Notes: generated by a model from the sequence alone, not told the origin. A stretch of 58,850 nucleotides of DNA from an uncultured Clostridia bacterium (GCA_944388765.1 CALXKA010000003.1:1-58850); one strand, 5' to 3'; shown: positions 42,611 through 58,443, counted from the stretch's first letter. Made by a program: numbers and translations.

Positions 42611-43207
42611 TTATATATTTTGTAGTATAAAATTAATTACATTATTTGTATTCGTGTTTTGTTTATATTTTTCTTTTTCTTCTTTTGCTAAATCTAAATA
42701 ATATTTATTATATTCTGGTATAATTGTTATAGAATCTAATGGGTATCCTGGATTTCTCTTATCACATGGTTTATCTACGAAATAGAAATGGCTTTTGCTC
42801 CATGTATATTCTTTTGCTTCTTTTCCGTTATATATTACCATTCCATATACCCATTTAGCAGTTAATTTTCCACCAAATTCTTTTGCTAAATTTGAATAAT
42901 GTTCAATCATTTCTTCATCTGTTAGTACTTTTCCATTTACTCTTCTTACATGTGTTCCTGGTTGCTTTTCTTGTGGTAATTCTTCTATAAATAGATTATC
43001 ATCCATTCCAATCGTTATGATTTTTGTTGCATCATAATATGTTTTTGCTTTTATGTATGCGTTTTCTAATGCATTTTTACCATTTTCATTTATATCTAAT
43101 TTTAAGTCTAAATCTTTTATTGTTATTAATTCTATTCCATTTTCAGCTAACCTACTTTTATATCTTTTTATTTTTGCCGGATTAGTTGTTGCAAATAATA
43201 GTTTCAT
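42611..43207 (-). CDS. HAM1/RdgB-family non-canonical purine NTP pyrophosphatase-like protein
   Basis: 'LLFATTNPAKIKR' N-terminal motif, 'ENAYIKAK', 198 aa. Confidence 0.65.
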   Translation of the reverse strand: MKLLFATTNPAKIKRYKSRLAENGIELITIKDLDLKLDINENGKNALENAYIKAKTYYDATKIITIGMDDNLFIEELPQEKQPGTHVRRVNGKVLTDEEMIEHYSNLAKEFGGKLTAKWVYGMVIYNGKEAKEYTWSKSHFYFVDKPCDKRNPGYPLDSITIIPEYNKYYLDLAKEEKEKYKQNTNTNNVINFILQNI

Positions 43208-43216
43208 CTTTTCCTC

Positions 43217-44380
43217 CTATACATATGAGTGTTCTATTTTTGGTACTGCGTAATATTTCTTATTTTTACTATGTATTTTTTCTTGTACTTGTTTTTTTAA
43301 TTTATCATTATCAATTTTTTCTTCTCTTGGTACAACTAAATCAAATATTAGATTTACCCTTCCTCCTCCATTTGTCATTCTAAAATCATGTATTGAAAAG
43401 TTTTTATTAATATCTTTAACTATATTTTCTGTTATTTTTCTCATTTTATTTATTTCTTCATCATCTACTTCTATTGGATCCATATGTATTGTTGTAATAC
43501 AATTAAATTCATCATATATATCTTGTTCCATTTGGTCTATTATATCATGAGCCATACATATATCACTATTTGAAGGCACCTCTGCATGGAATGATACTAT
43601 TTTTCTTCCTGGACCATAATCATGTATCATCATATCATGTATTCCTACTATCATGTCATATTTTTTTGTAAATTCTTCTATTCCTTTTACTAGTTCTGGA
43701 TCTGGTTTTGCACCTAATAATATATCAACCGTTTCTTTTAAAGCTTTAAATCCAGTAAATAAAATAAATATTGAAACTAATATACTTACATATCCATCTA
43801 TTGAAATATTTGAAAATTTAGCAACAATTGCAGATAATAAAACAACAAATGTTGATATTACATCTGATATGCTATCATATGCATTTCCTTTTATTGCTTC
43901 TGAATTTATTATTTTTGCTATTTTTTTATAGAAAACAAATAACCATAATTTTGCAATAATTGCAATTACTAATATTGTTATTGTTATTGTACTTATCTCT
44001 GGCATATTTGGATTTATTATTTTATCTACTGATGATTTTAATAGTTCAATTCCAACTAATATTATTAACATATCTACTATAAATGCTGCTATATATTCCA
44101 TTCTTCCATGCCCCCATGGGTGATCATTGTCTACTTTTTTTTGTGACATTTTAAATCCAATCATTGTTATTACTGATGAACCTGCATCTGTTATATTATT
44201 TAATCCATCTGAAATTATTGACATTGAATTTGCAATTATACCTATTATTACTTTTACAGTTGATAATATAAAATTTACTATAATCCCTGTTATGCTTGAT
44301 AATGTTCCATATTTTGCTCTTACTTTTGTATCTTTAATATCTTTATCTTTTATGAATATATTAATTAATAAGTCTGTCAT
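43217..44380 (-). CDS. cation diffusion facilitator family transporter
   Basis: Six TM helices, 'DAGSS' and 'HPWGHGR' motifs, and a C-terminal cytoplasmic domain. Confidence 0.85.
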   Translation of the reverse strand: MTDLLINIFIKDKDIKDTKVRAKYGTLSSITGIIVNFILSTVKVIIGIIANSMSIISDGLNNITDAGSSVITMIGFKMSQKKVDNDHPWGHGRMEYIAAFIVDMLIILVGIELLKSSVDKIINPNMPEISTITITILVIAIIAKLWLFVFYKKIAKIINSEAIKGNAYDSISDVISTFVVLLSAIVAKFSNISIDGYVSILVSIFILFTGFKALKETVDILLGAKPDPELVKGIEEFTKKYDMIVGIHDMMIHDYGPGRKIVSFHAEVPSNSDICMAHDIIDQMEQDIYDEFNCITTIHMDPIEVDDEEINKMRKITENIVKDINKNFSIHDFRMTNGGGRVNLIFDLVVPREEKIDNDKLKKQVQEKIHSKNKKYYAVPKIEHSYV

Positions 44381-44398
44381 TTTTTGTTCTCCTTTTTG

Positions 44399-45340
44399 TT
44401 ATATTTTCTTTAATTTAGCTACAAAGAATCCTTCCATGTTTTTTGATGGTAATATTCTTATTGCTTTATTAATACTTTTTTCTAGTCCTTCATTAAATCC
44501 ATTCATCTTTTCTTTAAATTCTATATCTATATCTAATAATTTTATATTAAAATTTTCTATTGCCCATTGCAACATTTCTTCATTTTCTTTTTTGTTTAAA
44601 GTACATGTTGAATATACCATTACACCATCTAATTTTAAAGCTTCATACGCACTTTTAAATAGTTTTCTTTGTAATTTCACAAGATCTTTTACTGTCTTTG
44701 TTGACCAGTTTCTATATGTTCCTACATTTGTTCCTAGAAATCTTCCTTCACCACTACATGGTGCATCAAGTAAGACTCTATCAAATTCTTCTTTATATTT
44801 GTCTCCTACTTTTTCTCCTCTTTGGTTTATAACTTCTACAATTTCTACTCCCTGTTTTCCAATATTATATTTTAATCTTTCACATCTTATACCATCTAAC
44901 TCATTTGCCAGAACATATCCTTTATTATTCATCATTGCTGCAATTTGAGTTGTTTTACTTCCGGGTGCTGCTGTTAAGTCTAGTATCTTTTCATTAGGTT
45001 TTGGATTCAAAATTATTGGTGGCACCATACTTGACAAACTTTGTATATACATATATCCTTTTTCATATATATCTAATTTTTGTATTTGCTTTTCATTTAC
45101 ATTTTTTATTATTAAAGCATCATTGTACCATTCTACTCTTTCGAATTTTATATTATTTTGTTTTAAATAACTCATTAACTCTCGTATATTATATTTTATT
45201 GTGTTTACTCTTAATGTAGTATTTCTATTTCCAGACATTCCCTTTAAAATTTTATCTACTGTTAATGGTGTATATTGTTCATATAATTCATCTATGAAAT
45301 CTTTTGGTAATTTTCTTTTTACATCTAATATTGATAGCAC
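44399..45340 (-). CDS. RsmB/RsmF (NOL1/NOP2/Sun) family RNA m5C methyltransferase
   Basis: 'DLTAAPGSKTT', 'LDAPCSGEG', 'VYSTCT'. GTG start 7 nt after a GGAGGT RBS. Confidence 0.8.
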   Translation of the reverse strand: MLSILDVKRKLPKDFIDELYEQYTPLTVDKILKGMSGNRNTTLRVNTIKYNIRELMSYLKQNNIKFERVEWYNDALIIKNVNEKQIQKLDIYEKGYMYIQSLSSMVPPIILNPKPNEKILDLTAAPGSKTTQIAAMMNNKGYVLANELDGIRCERLKYNIGKQGVEIVEVINQRGEKVGDKYKEEFDRVLLDAPCSGEGRFLGTNVGTYRNWSTKTVKDLVKLQRKLFKSAYEALKLDGVMVYSTCTLNKKENEEMLQWAIENFNIKLLDIDIEFKEKMNGFNEGLEKSINKAIRILPSKNMEGFFVAKLKKI

Positions 45341-56860: not shown

Positions 56861-56993
56861 TTTGCCGCCCCTTTATATCATTAATATTTCATTATTTCTT
56901 TTATTAAATCTCTCAAAAATATCCTTTATTGTTAATATTTTACTTGTTTTTATTTCATTTTAATCTAAATATATATATTACCCTTCCATAATC

Positions 56994-57398
56994 CTAATCT
57001 TCCTCTATTATTTCCATCAAAATTCCATTTGGATCTTTAATGAAAAAATATGGCTTTCCAAGTCTTCCTTTATTTATAATAATATCTGAATCATTTAAAT
57101 TGTTTTCTTCTACGAATTTTTTAGCTTTTTCTATATTTTTCACACCTAATCCAAAATGTTTATTTCCAACCGTTTTTAAATCTACTTCTAAATTTTTTGA
57201 ATGCTCTGGTAATGGTTTCTCTTCTTGATGATAATGAAATATTTCTAATATCATATTTTCTAAGCTAACCATTACTATATCTATCATTTTGTCATGATAT
57301 TCTTTCTTTATTTTAAACCCAAACTTTTTGTAAAATTCTAGACTTTTTTCTAAATTATCAGTACTAATACTTACATGATTGAAGCTAAACATATTCAT
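56994..57398 (-). CDS. VOC/glyoxalase-family protein
   Basis: 'FNHVSISTDNLEKSLEFYKKFGF' and '..FFIKDPNGILMEI'. Confidence 0.75.
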   Translation of the reverse strand: MNMFSFNHVSISTDNLEKSLEFYKKFGFKIKKEYHDKMIDIVMVSLENMILEIFHYHQEEKPLPEHSKNLEVDLKTVGNKHFGLGVKNIEKAKKFVEENNLNDSDIIINKGRLGKPYFFIKDPNGILMEIIEED

Positions 57399-57555
57399 TT
57401 CTCCTTTATTATTTTTTGTTTCTAGTAATTCATTTTATTTGTTGTCATATCTATTATAAAATCTCAATTTTTTATTAACATTTGTGGGCTTGTCATTCAA
57501 TGTGTATAGGTATTGTACAATGTATTCTCACCTACCTTCAATTTTAATTGAGGTT

Positions 57556-58443
57556 TTATATTCTTTTGACTTTTAATCCATCTTCCATATTTATTTTTGT
57601 AGGTATAATATATTTAGCATCAATTTTATGTGATATTAAATTAGTGGTTACTTTCATTGCTCTTGAACCATCAAACCATTTAGGATTATCACTATTTTGT
57701 CTAATTCTATCTAAAGATGTTACTAAAGCATCTTTATCATAATTGTCACTCATTTCAGTTGTTAGCATATATTTTTGTTTTTCATTTTTATACAAAGTAT
57801 TATCTATTAATTTATATCCTGCATTATTATACCAATATAAATGATCTCCACCCGCTAATATTAAAACATCTGCTTTAAAATTTATATCTCCTATCAATTC
57901 ATTCACAAATTTATAAACATCACTAAAAGAACAATTTGGGATATCATTTTTTAGGGTATCAAATTTATTTGTAATATCTACAACTCCAAAATTGTAATAT
58001 TTTTTATCAATGATTTTTTTATTATTTACAAATATAAGCTCTATAGAGCCTCCTCCACCTATAAAAACACAAATATTGCCATTATATTCTATATTATTAT
58101 AACAACCTAGTGCTGTATAATTTGCTTCATCTTCTTGAGATACAACTTGAATTTGTAGACTAAATTTGTTATATAATTTTTTATTAATTTCATTTAACTC
58201 TTTTTTAGATATATTTCTAAATATACTACATCCATAAATACTTATATTTTTTGTATAGTTCAAAGCATTATTTATTACTTCGCACAATCTATCTAAGTCA
58301 TTTTCATTAATTTTATTTTCATTCTTATAGTTTTTCTTAAATTCAATTGTGGTAGTGTTTTCATATATTATATCTTCATCTTTGTATATATGTGTTTTAG
58401 TATTATTACTTCCTATTTCAATAATACTAAATATATTATTCAT
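57556..58443 (-). CDS. Ppx/GppA-family (ASKHA) phosphatase-like protein
   Basis: 'IIEIGSNNTK', 'SQEDEANYTALG', 'FIGGGGSIEL' (phosphate 1, adenosine and phosphate 2 motifs). Confidence 0.6.
   Translation of the reverse strand: MNNIFSIIEIGSNNTKTHIYKDEDIIYENTTTIEFKKNYKNENKINENDLDRLCEVINNALNYTKNISIYGCSIFRNISKKELNEINKKLYNKFSLQIQVVSQEDEANYTALGCYNNIEYNGNICVFIGGGGSIELIFVNNKKIIDKKYYNFGVVDITNKFDTLKNDIPNCSFSDVYKFVNELIGDINFKADVLILAGGDHLYWYNNAGYKLIDNTLYKNEKQKYMLTTEMSDNYDKDALVTSLDRIRQNSDNPKWFDGSRAMKVTTNLISHKIDAKYIIPTKINMEDGLKVKRI

What the first reader, a model, noticed from the sequence alone, without database searches (positions are those of the whole stretch)
42611..58443. ~16-kb same-strand super-cluster of nucleotide and nucleic-acid house-cleaning genes
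The region holds 26 consecutive minus-strand genes, most separated by 32 nt or less or overlapping; five gaps are 99-157 nt. They include five mutually divergent Nudix hydrolases, a HAM1/RdgB-like and a YjjX-like non-canonical NTPase, two HD phosphohydrolases, and two HAD phosphatases. There is also a UDG-superfamily protein, a possible HhH-GPD glycosylase, an ASCH-domain protein, DUF4186, an RsmB-like m5C RNA methyltransferase and a Ppx/GppA-like phosphatase. GNAT, cupin, VOC, alpha/beta-hydrolase, C26-peptidase and def-like genes are interspersed. Each family is individually known to remove damaged or modified nucleotides or bases. I am not aware of this density and co-orientation having been described as a system. 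In a spore-former that also encodes SASP and SplB nearby, one idea is a nucleotide-pool and DNA sanitation regulon for germination. A nucleotide-targeting anti-phage island is an alternative.
Basis: inference. Interest (0 to 1): 0.72.

Follow-up and report, generated by a model that had tools for sequence, protein, structure and literature searches.

The report
Shuffled island of nucleotide-cleaning genes
A 16-kb stretch of an uncultured gut Clostridia chromosome really is packed with small stand-alone nucleotide "house-cleaning" enzymes, and related species carry similar stretches, but the genes are reshuffled in every species, so it behaves like a fluid themed gene island and not like a fixed multi-gene machine.

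Summary
Window 42611-58443 holds 25 tightly packed minus-strand genes: five divergent Nudix, a Ham1-like protein, YjjX, HD, two HAD, a UDG-like protein, ASCH, DUF4186, RsmB/F and a Ppx-GppA-like protein. A sixth Nudix lies just beyond the window.

Nudix density is about 30-50 times that of 1.09 Mb of background loci (P about 3e-7). Co-orientation is not special, because about 60 of 64 ORFs in the whole window share the strand.

The block is identical in other samples of the same species. In genus-level relatives (78-91% identity) similar Nudix/HD/MazG/Ham1/HAD/GNAT-rich arrays recur, but membership and order are random. Only 2 of 37 orthologue pairs stay adjacent, against 6 of 8 for neighbouring core genes.

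The block has at least six likely transcription units and native codon usage. It has no riboswitch, no recombination sites and no complete defence system. Two genes carry nonsense mutations.

The unannotated 248-aa protein has an HhH-GPD glycosylase fold.

Best reading: a lineage-specific, fast-rearranging island of autonomous house-cleaning and detoxification enzymes, not an operon-like system. A germination regulon or an anti-phage island remains possible but is not supported.

The parts
57556..58443 (-). Ppx-GppA-like protein (295 aa); only the N-terminal half of the Pfam model matches. Likely its own transcription unit.
   Evidence: Pfam PF02541, 53.4 bits, model positions 12-156 of 285. 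157-nt gap downstream.
56994..57398 (-). VOC/glyoxalase-bleomycin-resistance-fold protein (134 aa).
   Evidence: Pfam PF00903, E 2.2e-11.
56408..56860 (-). Unknown 150-aa protein; weak sub-threshold DUF4178 match.
   Evidence: Pfam 22.6 bits against a cut-off of 25. Orthologue at 69% identity in L158.
55635..56291 (-). Divergent UDG-superfamily protein (218 aa). It lacks the family-4/5 GE[AC]PG and HPS motifs and has F-M-N-P-T-G (MUG/SMUG-like Asn motif).
   Evidence: Pfam PF03167, 31.1 bits. PDB sequence hits 4zbx and 1ui0, E 2.6e-5 and 1.5e-4. Motif check.
54931..55638 (-). Class-I glutamine amidotransferase / Peptidase_C26-type protein.
   Evidence: Pfam PF07722 and PF00117. No NCBIfam equivalog cut-off reached.
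54348..54950 (-). Peptide deformylase pseudogene. Glu104 becomes a stop at window position 54617, inside the metal-binding EGC motif, and splits the gene into two ORFs. The gene is intact (189 aa) in strain L081.
   Evidence: Pfam halves. Alignment to L081:4572-5141. The same split is seen in L088. The intact allele passes NCBIfam NF001159.
53861..54355 (-). NudE: the most MutT-like Nudix (164 aa), with a canonical Nudix box.
   Evidence: Pfam NUDIX, E 6.7e-18. TIGR00586 71.6 bits, below its cut-off of 97.9. Full-length PADLOC PDC-S07 match. Nudix box.
53309..53860 (-). Ser_hydrolase-family alpha/beta hydrolase (183 aa).
   Evidence: Pfam PF06821, E 8.8e-17.
53264..53293 (-). Hairpin (8-bp stem AAAGUACC/GGUGCUUU, 8-nt loop) followed by AUUUUU. 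Probable intrinsic terminator after the UDG-to-SerHyd unit.
   Evidence: Read directly from the gap sequence. It was not flagged by the consensus scan.
53182..53210 (-). Sigma-A-type promoter TTGAGA-17 nt-TATAGT with an extended TG, upstream of DUF4186.
   Evidence: Promoter scan, 10 of 12 matches with TG. The same architecture occurs upstream of a Nudix gene in L156.
52790..53158 (-). DUF4186 protein (function unknown; invariant CCRGC motif; 60-88% identical across phyla).
   Evidence: Pfam PF13811, E 3.6e-53. 591 relatives found. Alignment A3.
52334..52780 (-). ASCH-domain protein.
   Evidence: Pfam PF04266, 28.7 bits.
51708..52337 (-). HD-like 209-aa gene, broken in this strain by Trp34-to-stop at window position 52236. 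Intact in L081:7152-7781.
   Evidence: Alignment. Weak HD and HD_3 matches, E 0.0013. Split in L088 as well.
51325..51675 (-). Small cupin-like protein (sub-threshold).
   Evidence: Pfam Cupin_2, 22.5 bits against a cut-off of 27.2.
50784..51302 (-). NudD: Nudix hydrolase (172 aa) with a relaxed Nudix box that keeps REx2EE.
   Evidence: Pfam NUDIX, E 1.2e-13. Box check.
50320..50763 (-). GNAT acetyltransferase.
   Evidence: Pfam PF13508, PF13673 and PF00583.
49518..50309 (-). Cof-type HAD-IIB phosphatase.
   Evidence: Pfam PF08282, E 4.3e-46. TIGR00099 126.7 bits against a cut-off of 137.
48742..49488 (-). HhH-GPD-superfamily N-glycosylase-like protein (248 aa, no Pfam assignment). Invariant Lys159 (LSGNK) and Asp187 (APDTHV). 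Its substrate could be DNA lesions or free nucleotides.
   Evidence: AF2 model pLDDT 92.5. Foldseek best hits are Qng1/DUF2419 (E 1.6e-4, TM 0.6), then MagIII, MIG, MutY, AGOG, TAG and OGG1. Family members weakly hit DUF2400, AGOG and HhH-GPD. Invariant residues.
47917..48642 (-). HD-domain phosphohydrolase (241 aa). First gene of the last unit, preceded by a 99-nt gap.
   Evidence: Pfam PF01966, 31.5 bits.
47173..47898 (-). HAD-IA phosphatase (HAD_2).
   Evidence: Pfam PF13419, E 2e-26. TIGR01509 subfamily cut-off met.
45907..47170 (-). Three adjacent, mutually divergent Nudix genes: NudC 46772-47170, NudB 46354-46761 and NudA 45907-46341.
   Evidence: Pfam NUDIX. Pairwise identity is 27-33% over partial alignments. 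No NCBIfam equivalog cut-off reached.
45346..45876 (-). YjjX-type inosine/xanthosine triphosphatase.
   Evidence: Pfam PF01931, E 6e-45. TIGR00258 132.2 bits, above its cut-off of 117.1.
44399..45340 (-). NOL1/NOP2/Sun (RsmB/F-type) RNA m5C methyltransferase.
   Evidence: Pfam PF01189. TIGR00446 247.4 bits, above its cut-off of 210.45. The PADLOC 'mad2' hit covers the methyltransferase core only.
43217..44380 (-). Cation-diffusion-facilitator (CDF) metal efflux transporter.
   Evidence: Pfam PF01545 and PF16916.
42611..43207 (-). Divergent Ham1/RdgB-like NTP pyrophosphatase (198 aa).
   Evidence: Pfam PF01725, 61.1 bits. All NCBIfam equivalogs score far below cut-off, 54-66 bits against 145-267.
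33869..37318 (-). Leftward continuation of the small-gene run: a pentapeptide-repeat protein, three GNATs and a SAM methyltransferase. Orthologues of these sit inside the arrays of relatives.
   Evidence: Pfam. The w34528 GNAT orthologue is found in L156 (67%) and L003 (69%).

Best explanation
The block is one species' snapshot of a lineage-specific, fast-rearranging chromosomal island. It is made of autonomous single-gene enzymes.

Most of them are nucleotide- or nucleic-acid-directed 'house-cleaning' hydrolases:
- six Nudix, counting the one just past the window end;
- a Ham1-like protein and a YjjX ITP/XTPase;
- HD and HD-like phosphohydrolases;
- an HhH-GPD-fold glycosylase-like protein;
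- UDG-like and ASCH proteins.

They are mixed with generic detoxification or side-activity enzymes: HAD phosphatases, GNAT, VOC, cupin, a serine hydrolase, a C26 amidotransferase, a spare def, an RNA m5C methylase and a metal exporter.

Each protein acts alone on its own small-molecule or nucleic-acid substrate. There is no multi-protein machine and no fixed pathway. (This is inferred from the biology of the families and from the lack of conserved partnerships.)

The genes are transcribed from the leading strand in at least six units. (This is inferred from the gaps. One terminator-plus-promoter boundary can be seen in the sequence.)

What evolves and is selected is the single gene, not the block. 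At most it is a pair, such as the glycosylase-like gene plus a Nudix.

The genes sit together because this lineage keeps a permissive, co-oriented chromosomal stretch. Small dispensable enzyme genes are inserted there, duplicated, lost and reordered. The genome-wide leading-strand bias keeps them in one orientation.

Why the content is so biased towards nucleotide hydrolases is not shown. The likeliest reason is a high demand for cleaning a scavenged or damaged nucleotide pool in a small-genome gut anaerobe. (This is inference.)
For: SHOWN.
(1) Family content and enrichment: Pfam and NCBIfam. Nudix-box ORFs are 19% of ORFs in the block, 0.6% in background loci and 0 of 38 in the rest of the window; P = 3.4e-7.
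(2) The theme recurs with different members and order in relatives at 78-91% identity (L156-L159, L144, L090). Their arrays carry NUDIX, HD, MazG, Ham1, YjjX, HAD, GNAT, VOC, ASCH, def, cupin, Ppx-GppA, AP_endonuc_2 and UDG. There are 50 orthologues in 13 loci, all on the anchor's strand. Only 2 of 37 consecutive pairs are adjacent in the window, and relative order is 21 of 37, which is random.
(3) Control: flanking core genes (SplB-rpsO-pnp-...-queA) keep 6 of 8 adjacencies at 85-91% identity; Fisher P = 8.8e-5.
(4) Within the species the block is 97-100% identical and colinear.
(5) It is not a single operon. There are five real gaps of 99-157 nt. The 53159-53308 gap holds a hairpin plus T-run and a TTGAGA-17-TGnTATAGT promoter.
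(6) It is native, not recently imported. RSCU correlates with core genes at r = 0.993, and GC3 is 0.129 against 0.120. No tRNA or integrase is present.
(7) Individual members are dispensable. def and the HD-like gene carry nonsense mutations in this strain and in L088, but are intact in L081. A truncated def also occurs in L159.
(8) The Nudix paralogues are old: 27-44% identity.
(9) The locus is plastic. In relatives, mobile or defence-type genes are inserted in or next to the array: two serine recombinases and a zeta toxin in L157, KilA-N and an AAA_15 ATPase in L156, and a TAG-recoded phage in L087.
Against: - A purely neutral 'gene sink' does not explain why content is so biased towards nucleotide-directed hydrolases in at least six species, and partly in a second lineage at 35% GC. 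Some selection for the theme, or for co-localisation, is likely.
- No expression data exist, so co-regulation cannot be excluded.
- TTGAGA occurs in 4 of 6 block gaps and in none of the 21 other gaps of the window.
- The relatives were found by anchoring on block genes, so the comparison is conditional on those genes being present.
- Orthology rests on best tblastn hits in paralogue-rich families.
- Most contexts come from metagenome assemblies.
- The mechanism of reordering is unknown.
Confidence: 0.6

Rival explanations
1. Co-regulated nucleotide-pool and DNA sanitation regulon. The units are switched on together, for example in the forespore or at germination when dormant-spore DNA and nucleotide pools must be cleaned. 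Co-localisation is selected for shared timing, and gene order is free because each enzyme acts alone.
For: - The content is thematically coherent and recurs across species.
- The organism is a spore-former, with SplB and an alpha/beta SASP in the same window.
- TTGAGA-containing gaps are restricted to the block.
- Co-localisation persists although order does not.
Against: - The one clear promoter is sigma-A-type with an extended -10 box, which is not a sporulation-sigma type.
- No operator-like motif is conserved in the relatives' arrays.
- No riboswitch or other known RNA element is present.
- There are at least six units.
- Two members are pseudogenes in this strain.
- The array is not linked to SplB in three of four relatives examined.
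- Many members (CDF, RsmB/F, C26, GNAT, VOC) have no link to nucleotide sanitation.
Confidence: 0.13
2. Anti-phage or nucleotide-conflict island. The Nudix, HD, MazG, Ham1 and glycosylase-like enzymes destroy phage-specific modified nucleotides, signalling nucleotides or nucleotide-analogue toxins. They cluster as defence genes do, in a hotspot with rapid turnover.
For: - The dynamics resemble a defence island: variable membership and order between species.
- Mobile or defence-type genes lie in or next to the arrays: an AAA_15/AAA_21 ATPase and KilA-N in L156, serine recombinases and a zeta toxin in L157, and a prophage next to Ppx in L087.
- Six Nudix proteins match the PADLOC candidate PDC-S07, best E 3.5e-23.
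Against: - No complete known defence system is present. The 'mad2' hit is only the methyltransferase core of an RsmB/F RNA methylase.
- PDC-S07 is a candidate of about 130 aa that was only listed, not validated, in the one paper I read on it. Any MutT-like Nudix would match it.
- The block is invariant within the species across many samples, unlike typical defence islands.
- Codon usage is native.
- There are no close relatives in 2.9 million viral contigs, and the glycosylase-like family has essentially one viral hit.
- The content includes plain housekeeping types (def, RsmB/F, CDF, Cof).
Confidence: 0.15
3. Salvage toolkit for exogenous modified nucleosides and nucleotides. A small-genome gut anaerobe imports nucleic-acid breakdown products. 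It uses Nudix, HD and HAD enzymes plus the glycosylase-like protein to strip phosphates and bases, so that usable parts are recycled and odd ones discarded. The role would be nutritional, not protective.
For: - The closest structural match of the 248-aa protein is Qng1/DUF2419, which acts on free queuosine-5'-monophosphate and not on DNA.
- A Nudix is the immediate neighbour of its homologue in 9 of 48 distant loci, and a conserved x-Nudix-homologue module occurs in L101 and L127.
- Many phosphatases (HAD, HD, His_Phos_1, DHH) occur in the arrays.
- tgt and queA are in the window.
Against: - No nucleoside or nucleotide transporter, kinase or phosphorylase is seen in the block.
- The predicted model lacks the Qng1-specific beta-hairpins and C-terminal tail, so a DNA substrate is not excluded.
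- Substrates of all the Nudix proteins are unknown.
Confidence: 0.1
4. Chance or artefact: an ordinary stretch of small genes whose apparent theme comes from the abundance of these superfamilies, or from assembly chimeras.
For: - Nudix, HAD, GNAT and HD are among the largest bacterial superfamilies.
- Co-orientation is genome-wide.
Against: - Enrichment is P = 3.4e-7 in the block and P = 7e-17 in the relatives.
- The same block was assembled independently in several samples.
- Arrays occur on long contigs, up to 1.85 Mb.
Confidence: 0.02

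Closest known systems
Defence islands / genomic plasticity hotspots
   Same: - Functionally themed but mechanistically independent genes are clustered at one locus.
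- Membership and order differ between related genomes.
- Mobile-element genes lie nearby.
   Different: - The content is house-cleaning and detoxification enzymes, with no complete known defence system.
- The block is invariant within the species.
- Codon usage is native, and no tRNA or integrase boundary is present.
Sedentary chromosomal integron cassette arrays (e.g. Vibrio)
   Same: - Long runs of small, co-oriented, tightly packed genes that get reshuffled.
- From my own knowledge, such cassettes often encode GNAT, Nudix, VOC and cupin-type proteins.
   Different: - There are no attC-like repeats at junctions. Most junctions are 0-32 nt and hold only a ribosome-binding site.
- No integron integrase is present.
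- Each gene has its own RBS, and several promoters exist.
House-cleaning enzymes (MutT/GO system, RdgB/Ham1, YjjX, MazG, HD nucleotidases)
   Same: The block contains members of exactly these superfamilies. YjjX passes its equivalog cut-off, and all the Nudix proteins keep the REx2EE catalytic core.
   Different: - In model bacteria these genes are dispersed as single copies (my own knowledge).
- Here they are concentrated about 30-50-fold.
- None of the Nudix proteins reaches any equivalog threshold, and the Ham1-like protein is highly divergent.
Nudix family expansions in Deinococcus and the Bacillus cereus group
   Same: Many divergent Nudix paralogues in one genome (my own knowledge; a Deinococcus genome paper surfaced).
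   Different: To my knowledge those expansions are described as family expansions, not as a single shuffled array with HD, Ham1, YjjX and glycosylase-like genes. I did not test this here.
Qng1/DUF2419 and HhH-GPD DNA glycosylases (for the 248-aa protein)
   Same: Two-lobe all-helical HhH fold. An invariant Lys and Asp sit in an LSGxK ... DTH arrangement, the two residues reported as invariant across Qng1 and the HhH glycosylases (PMC9881137).
   Different: - 12-15% identity.
- No Pfam or PDB sequence hit at threshold.
- It lacks the Qng1-specific beta-hairpins and tail.
- The substrate is unknown.

Membership tests
Nudix hydrolase superfamily (five block genes plus one beyond the window end) | Nudix box GX5EX7REUXEEXGU with the catalytic REx2EE core; Pfam PF00293 above the gathering score. 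| tested here: met
   All five score 44-73 bits against a cut-off of 21.1. All six keep REx2EE; NudB, NudE and Nud179 have the fully canonical box.
MutT 8-oxo-dGTP diphosphatase (equivalog) | Score above the curated NCBIfam equivalog cut-off (TIGR00586 97.9; NF008044 148). | tested here: not met
   The best is NudE at 71.6 and 68.6 bits; the others score 42 bits or less. Substrate specificity is therefore unassigned.
RdgB/Ham1 non-canonical purine NTP pyrophosphatase | Pfam Ham1p_like domain; NCBIfam equivalog cut-off (TIGR00042 145.35). | tested here: inconclusive
   The Pfam domain is met at 61.1 bits against 22.5. The equivalog is not met, at 54.1 bits. This is a superfamily member of uncertain specificity.
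YjjX inosine/xanthosine triphosphatase | TIGR00258 equivalog cut-off of 117.1. | tested here: met
   132.2 bits; Pfam NTPase_I-T E 6e-45.
Single operon | One promoter, no internal terminators, and uniformly short intergenic distances. | tested here: not met
   There are five real gaps of 99-157 nt. A hairpin plus T-run and a sigma-A-type promoter lie in 53159-53308. Transcripts were not measured.
Conserved gene cluster / 'system' | Gene content and order conserved across species beyond what neighbouring genes show. | tested here: not met
   2 of 37 adjacencies are kept, against 6 of 8 for core genes; Fisher P = 8.8e-5. Relative order is 21 of 37. More than 70 distant genomes have none of the block genes near DUF4186.
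Integron cassette array | attC recombination sites between cassettes, and an integron integrase (or at least clustered attC sites). | tested here: not met
   The junctions hold only an RBS and AT-rich spacer, with no repeat family at junctions. No integrase domain is found in the window.
Known anti-phage defence system (PADLOC) | All components of a described system present together. | tested here: not met
   Only single-domain matches were found: PDC-S07 (Nudix, six proteins), 'mad2' (methyltransferase core of RsmB/F, model positions 268-420 of 492) and 'Hydrolase' (HAD, E 4e-5).
Horizontally acquired genomic island | Atypical composition or codon usage, a tRNA or integrase boundary, and variable presence within the species. 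| tested here: not met
   RSCU r = 0.993 against core genes and similar GC3. No tRNA. The block is present and colinear in all same-species contigs retrieved.
HhH-GPD glycosylase superfamily (248-aa protein) | Two-lobe helical HhH fold, with a conserved HhH-motif Lys and a catalytic Asp. | tested here: met
   Foldseek probability is 1.0 to Qng1, MagIII, MIG and MutY, and 0.99 to AGOG, with TM 0.44-0.62. K159 and D187 are invariant in 35 sequences. That these correspond to the catalytic pair is inferred from motif similarity, not from a residue-level structural alignment. Pfam HhH-GPD and AGOG hits are below threshold.
Qng1/DUF2419 queuosine-5'-monophosphate glycosylase | Qng1-specific beta-hairpin insertions and a C-terminal tail that block the DNA cleft (PMC9881137). 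| tested here: not met
   The predicted model is all-helical with no strands of 3 or more residues. It is 248 aa, against about 320 aa for Qng1. Only one family member gives a weak Q_salvage hit.
Uracil-DNA glycosylase family 4/5 | Motif A GE[AC]PG, motif B HPS, and a 4-Cys Fe-S cluster. | tested here: not met
   These motifs are absent, and only 4 scattered Cys are present. F-M-N-P-T-G resembles the MUG/SMUG motif. Superfamily membership is only marginal: Pfam 31.1 bits, covering part of the domain.
Peptide deformylase | Full-length protein with the EGC and HExxH metal-binding motifs; NCBIfam NF001159 cut-off of 125. | tested here: not met
   The window allele has a stop replacing the Glu of EGC (position 54617). 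The intact allele in L081 scores 154.8 bits.
Sporulation/germination regulon | Dependence on sigma-F/G/E/K promoters, or induction at germination. | not testable with these tools
   No expression data are available. Short AT-rich sigma motifs are not discriminating in a 26% GC genome. The one clear promoter is sigma-A-like.

The most novel reading that the evidence does not exclude
The arrays are a selected 'house-cleaning (or nucleotide-conflict) island', and not a neutral accumulation of small genes. On this reading a genus-wide pool of interchangeable nucleotide-directed hydrolases and glycosylase-like proteins is kept together at a plastic, leading-strand locus. Its members are swapped like defence genes, because together they neutralise a changing spectrum of aberrant nucleotides. 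Sources of such nucleotides could be hypermodified phage DNA precursors, nucleotide-analogue toxins from competitors, or scavenged damaged nucleotides. This would be a kind of genomic island not described before. The HhH-GPD-like protein plus Nudix pair would be its only recurrent module, possibly a free-nucleotide glycosylase working downstream of a Nudix.
Probability: 0.2. Interest if true: 0.75.

Novelty: new variant of a known kind. Interest (0 to 1): 0.5.

Why it matters
Bacteria carry many Nudix, HD, HAD and GNAT paralogues whose substrates and reasons for existing are mostly unknown. In this lineage they are concentrated in one small, rapidly reshuffled stretch. This has three consequences.

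- It gives a natural panel of about 25 enzymes per species for substrate screening, with many variants between species.
- It suggests that themed islands with fast turnover are not restricted to phage defence.
- It exposes an uncharacterised and widespread HhH-GPD-fold family (thousands of homologues) that often sits next to a Nudix gene.

For annotation pipelines it is also a caution. Dense, co-oriented, thematically coherent gene runs need not be operons or systems.

Tried and rejected
- Single-operon idea: rejected, because of the gaps, a terminator and a promoter.
- Integron-like cassettes: no junction repeats, attC-like sites or integrase.
- Recent tandem duplication of Nudix genes: rejected, since paralogues share only 27-44% identity.
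- Foreign island: rejected by codon usage and the lack of tRNA or integrase.
- Shared operator: AATTGAGA occurs three times, only in block gaps, but fewer times than chance expects window-wide. It resolves into a sigma-A-type -35 box and is not conserved as an operator in relatives.
- Riboswitches and other RNA elements: none at Rfam gathering thresholds.
- The consensus promoter and terminator scan gave no excess over shuffles, so it is uninformative in this AT-rich DNA.
- PADLOC gave only domain-level hits.
- Viral contigs: no close relatives of three block genes.
- Sequence searches of the 248-aa, 209-aa and DUF4186 proteins or profiles against PDB sequences found nothing useful.
- Two context look-ups failed because my ORF starts differed from the called genes.
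- Literature searches found no description of such a cluster and nothing functional on DUF4186.

Full report
WHAT IS THERE. The window is 26% GC with uniformly negative GC skew. In the first ORF call, 61 of 64 non-overlapping ORFs of 60 aa or more are on the minus strand. One of those 61 later proved to be the antisense shadow of a plus-strand SASP gene, so about 60 of 64 is the true figure. The co-orientation of the flagged block is therefore a property of the whole replichore and not of the block.

Inside 42611-58443 there are 26 consecutive minus-strand ORFs. Most junctions are -20 to 32 nt and carry an ordinary GGAG-type ribosome-binding site.

- five NUDIX, Ham1p_like, NTPase_I-T (YjjX) and HD;
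- HAD_2 and Cof-type HAD;
- UDG (marginal), ASCH, DUF4186 and RsmB/F;
- Ppx-GppA (N-terminal half only);
- GNAT, VOC, Ser_hydrolase, Peptidase_C26 and def.

The cupin and the 'second HD' (the 209-aa gene) score below threshold.

A sixth Nudix (179 aa) and a TRAM-type RNA methyltransferase follow just beyond the window end in another sample of the same species (L081).

NCBIfam shows that only three proteins reach curated cut-offs: YjjX (TIGR00258), the NOL1/NOP2/Sun-type methylase, and the intact def allele. No Nudix reaches any equivalog threshold, and the Ham1-like protein is very divergent. The statement that each family is 'known to remove damaged nucleotides' is too strong for DUF4186, GNAT, VOC, C26, def, CDF and the serine hydrolase.

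IS IT MORE THAN CHANCE? I used a relaxed Nudix-box pattern on ORFs called in the same way everywhere.
- Block: 5 of 26 ORFs (19%).
- Rest of the window: 0 of 38.
- Background: 7 of 1239 (0.6%) in 1.09 Mb of loci from 75 other gut-bacterial species.

The binomial probability of 5 or more in 26 at the background rate is 3.4e-7. The five paralogues share only 27-44% identity over partial alignments, so they are not recent tandem copies. All keep the REx2EE catalytic core. Block genes are also short, with a median of 168 aa against 311 aa for the core part of the window.

SURROUNDINGS. Window 1-33.8 kb is ordinary chromosome. It holds surface proteins with dockerins, era, accBC-fab genes, tgt, queA, pnp, rpsO, a PBP, SplB, a PALP enzyme and an alpha/beta-type SASP on the plus strand.

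A run of small GNAT, methyltransferase and pentapeptide genes already starts at 33869. Two ABC-transporter genes separate it from the block. Orthologues of those GNATs sit inside the arrays of relatives. The left boundary at 42611 is therefore somewhat arbitrary.

No tRNA, no Rfam family and no integrase occur in the window. Block codon usage matches the core genes: RSCU r = 0.993 and GC3 0.129 against 0.120.

TRANSCRIPTION. Five real gaps of 99-157 nt divide the block into at least six likely units. A sixth gap, of 140 nt, is created by a nonsense mutation.

The gap upstream of DUF4186 contains an 8-bp hairpin followed by AUUUUU. After it comes a TTGAGA-17 nt-TATAGT promoter with an extended TG.

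The consensus scans otherwise show no excess over shuffled sequence.

AATTGAGA occurs three times in the window, all in block gaps. That is fewer than chance expects window-wide. In relatives it appears only as the -35 box of the same promoter type, not as a conserved operator.

SYNTENY, THE DECISIVE TEST. Other samples of the same species carry the block at 97-100% protein identity and in the same order (L081-L083, L088, L160).

I first anchored on DUF4186 in one genome per GTDB species. Only the nearest relatives (75-88% identity) have one to three block orthologues nearby, each time a different subset. More than 70 other species have none.

I then anchored on the central 248-aa gene in metagenomes and in the protein collection, which gave a gradient of relatives. 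At 78-91% identity (L156, L157, L090, L158, L144, L159) the neighbourhood is always a co-oriented run of small genes. The runs are rich in NUDIX, HD, MazG, Ham1, YjjX, HAD, GNAT, VOC, ASCH, def, cupin, Ppx-GppA, AP_endonuc_2, UDG-like and Ser_hydrolase. Membership and order differ every time.

Across 13 loci there are 50 orthologues (at least 50% identity and 60% coverage), all on the anchor's strand. Only 2 of 37 consecutive pairs are neighbours in the window. Relative order is 21 of 37, which is indistinguishable from random.

Nudix-box ORFs make up 10.8% of ORFs in these relatives (P = 7e-17). At 69% identity or less the array is gone, except in a second lineage at about 35% GC that has three to four Nudix genes per 20 kb.

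As a control I anchored on SplB. The core segment SplB-rpsO-pnp-x-x-queA keeps 6 of 8 adjacencies in relatives at 85-91% identity. The Fisher test against the block gives P = 8.8e-5. The array side next to SplB is replaced by unrelated genes in three relatives.

In relatives, mobile or defence-type genes are embedded in or adjacent to the arrays:
- two large serine recombinases, a zeta toxin and a small sigma-like gene directly after the UDG-like gene in L157;
- KilA-N plus an AAA_15/AAA_21 ATPase in L156;
- a phage next to Ppx in L087.

DISPENSABILITY. In this strain and in L088, def carries Glu104-to-stop inside the EGC metal-binding motif (window 54617). The HD-like 209-aa gene carries Trp34-to-stop (52236). 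Both genes are intact in L081. A truncated 96-aa def also sits in the array of L159.

THE UNANNOTATED 248-aa PROTEIN. It has no Pfam, NCBIfam or PDB sequence match, yet it has thousands of homologues in Firmicutes, Bacteroidota and others.

Members of a 35-sequence alignment give weak, mutually consistent hits to DUF2400, AGOG, HhH-GPD and Q_salvage. The AlphaFold model is confident at pLDDT 92.5.

Foldseek places it in the HhH glycosylase fold. The best matches are the queuine-salvage enzyme Qng1/DUF2419 (E 1.6e-4, TM about 0.6), followed by MagIII, MIG, MutY, AGOG, TAG, EndoIII and OGG1.

Lys159 (LSGNK) and Asp187 (APDTHV) are invariant. The Qng1 paper reports that the only two residues invariant across Qng1 and the HhH DNA glycosylases are the HhH-motif Lys and Asp (PMC9881137). 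Equating them with K159 and D187 is my inference from motif similarity.

The model lacks the Qng1-specific beta-hairpins and tail, so it is not a Qng1 family member. Its substrate, DNA or free nucleotide, is open.

A Nudix gene is the immediate neighbour of its homologue in 9 of 48 distant loci, eight of them upstream. A conserved x-Nudix-homologue module occurs in L101 and L127. This is the only recurrent partnership I found, and it is not kept in the window itself.

DEFENCE ALTERNATIVE. PADLOC gives only domain-level matches:
- six Nudix proteins match PDC-S07;
- the RsmB/F methyltransferase core matches 'mad2';
- a HAD matches 'Hydrolase'.

In the one paper I read on it, PDC-S07 is a single ORF of about 390 nt that is listed but not validated. 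Three block genes have no close relative in 2.9 million viral contigs, and the glycosylase-like family profile finds essentially one.

INTERPRETATION. The enrichment is real and lineage-wide, so this is not chance. However, the block fails every test of a fixed system:
- gene order is not conserved;
- there is no single transcript;
- there is no shared regulatory element;
- there is no obligate partner set;
- individual members decay.

The best-supported model (about 0.6) is a native, fast-rearranging island of autonomous enzymes. The genome-wide leading-strand bias is enough to explain why orientation survives reshuffling.

What remains unexplained is why this lineage concentrates nucleotide-directed hydrolases at one plastic locus, and how the genes are reordered. 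The rivals cannot be excluded without expression and biochemical data: co-regulated sanitation or germination (about 0.13), anti-phage or nucleotide conflict (about 0.15) and nucleotide salvage (about 0.10).

CAVEATS.
- Relatives were found through anchors that are themselves block genes.
- Orthology uses best tblastn hits in paralogue-rich families.
- ORFs were called by a simple longest-ORF rule.
- Most contexts are metagenome assemblies.
- The background loci are anchored on DUF4186.

COMPARISON WITH KNOWN THINGS. Each gene is a new, mostly divergent member of a known superfamily. The organisation resembles defence islands and integron cassette arrays in its dynamics. It lacks their defining features (see the membership table).

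I found no paper describing a shuffled array rich in Nudix, HD and Ham1 genes. I therefore rate it a new variant of a known kind, a themed and plastic genomic island, of moderate interest.

Noticed in passing
L087:1-8500 (ena:ERZ28614505 scaffold_169), adjacent to the Ppx end of the block in another strain: A phage-like region with YonB, YonD_N and YonG_N domains lies next to Ppx-VOC-unk150-UDG, which are 100% identical to the window. Six of its genes carry 50 in-frame TAG codons and end in TAA or TGA. Coding coverage rises from 4.6 to 8.5 kb of 9 kb if TAG is read through. This looks like a TAG-recoded phage or prophage beside a host that uses the standard code.
   Followed up: partly
window 54617 and 52236: Two single-base nonsense mutations lie inside the block: def Glu104-to-stop at the EGC motif, and the HD-like 209-aa gene Trp34-to-stop. 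Both are shared with L088 and absent from L081, so a sub-lineage of the species has lost both genes.
   Followed up: yes
window ~1220-1465 (+): An alpha/beta-type SASP (KYEVASEVGV ... GGQMVKKMIE) is encoded on the plus strand. The 81-aa minus-strand ORF at 1218-1463 is its spurious antisense shadow.
   Followed up: yes
window 23158-24358 (-), between tgt and queA: A GNAT ORF lies in the apparent 445-nt 'gap' at 23158-23602; it is called as a 153-aa gene in L160. Together with a 251-aa protein with a weak Nudix match, it sits between tgt and queA. In the 86% relative L162, two unannotated genes occupy the same position.
   Followed up: no
distant loci L094-L143; L101:8603-10729 and L127:8586-10615: The HhH-GPD-fold family of the 248-aa protein has a Nudix gene as its immediate neighbour in 9 of 48 distant loci, mostly upstream. 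A conserved 290-aa gene, a 155-aa Nudix and the homologue form a module in a lineage at 35% GC. This could be a two- or three-gene functional unit.
   Followed up: partly
L157:12607-20747 (1.85-Mb contig, 88% relative): Directly after the UDG-like gene of that array lies a mobile-element-like segment. It has a sigma70_r4-like gene, DUF6870, two 559-aa serine recombinases, an MBL-fold protein, a zeta toxin and a PHP protein. The same recombinase pair follows the array in L090.
   Followed up: no
window 42309-42572 (+), with a terminator-like hairpin at 42585-42599: This is the only plus-strand gene at the left edge of the block: an 87-aa protein with no family match, convergent with Ham1. It is also called in L081 and L082.
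   Followed up: no
window 52790-53158 and loci L001-L080: DUF4186 is 60-70% identical between Clostridia, Bacteroidota (Segatella, including an extrachromosomal record), Gastranaerophilales and others. It has an invariant CCRGC motif and no PDB relative. It is a very conserved small protein of unknown function.
   Followed up: partly
window 3005-9237 (-): Large surface proteins carry Big_2, BspA-type LRR, transglutaminase-core and type-I dockerin domains, and lie next to a sortase. This suggests cellulosome-like or cell-surface display in this gut organism.
   Followed up: no
window 37319-37532 (-): A 214-nt leader upstream of the two ABC-transporter genes has a strong TTGACA-17-TAAAAT promoter and a downstream hairpin plus T-run. 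It may be an attenuator, but there is no Rfam match.
   Followed up: no
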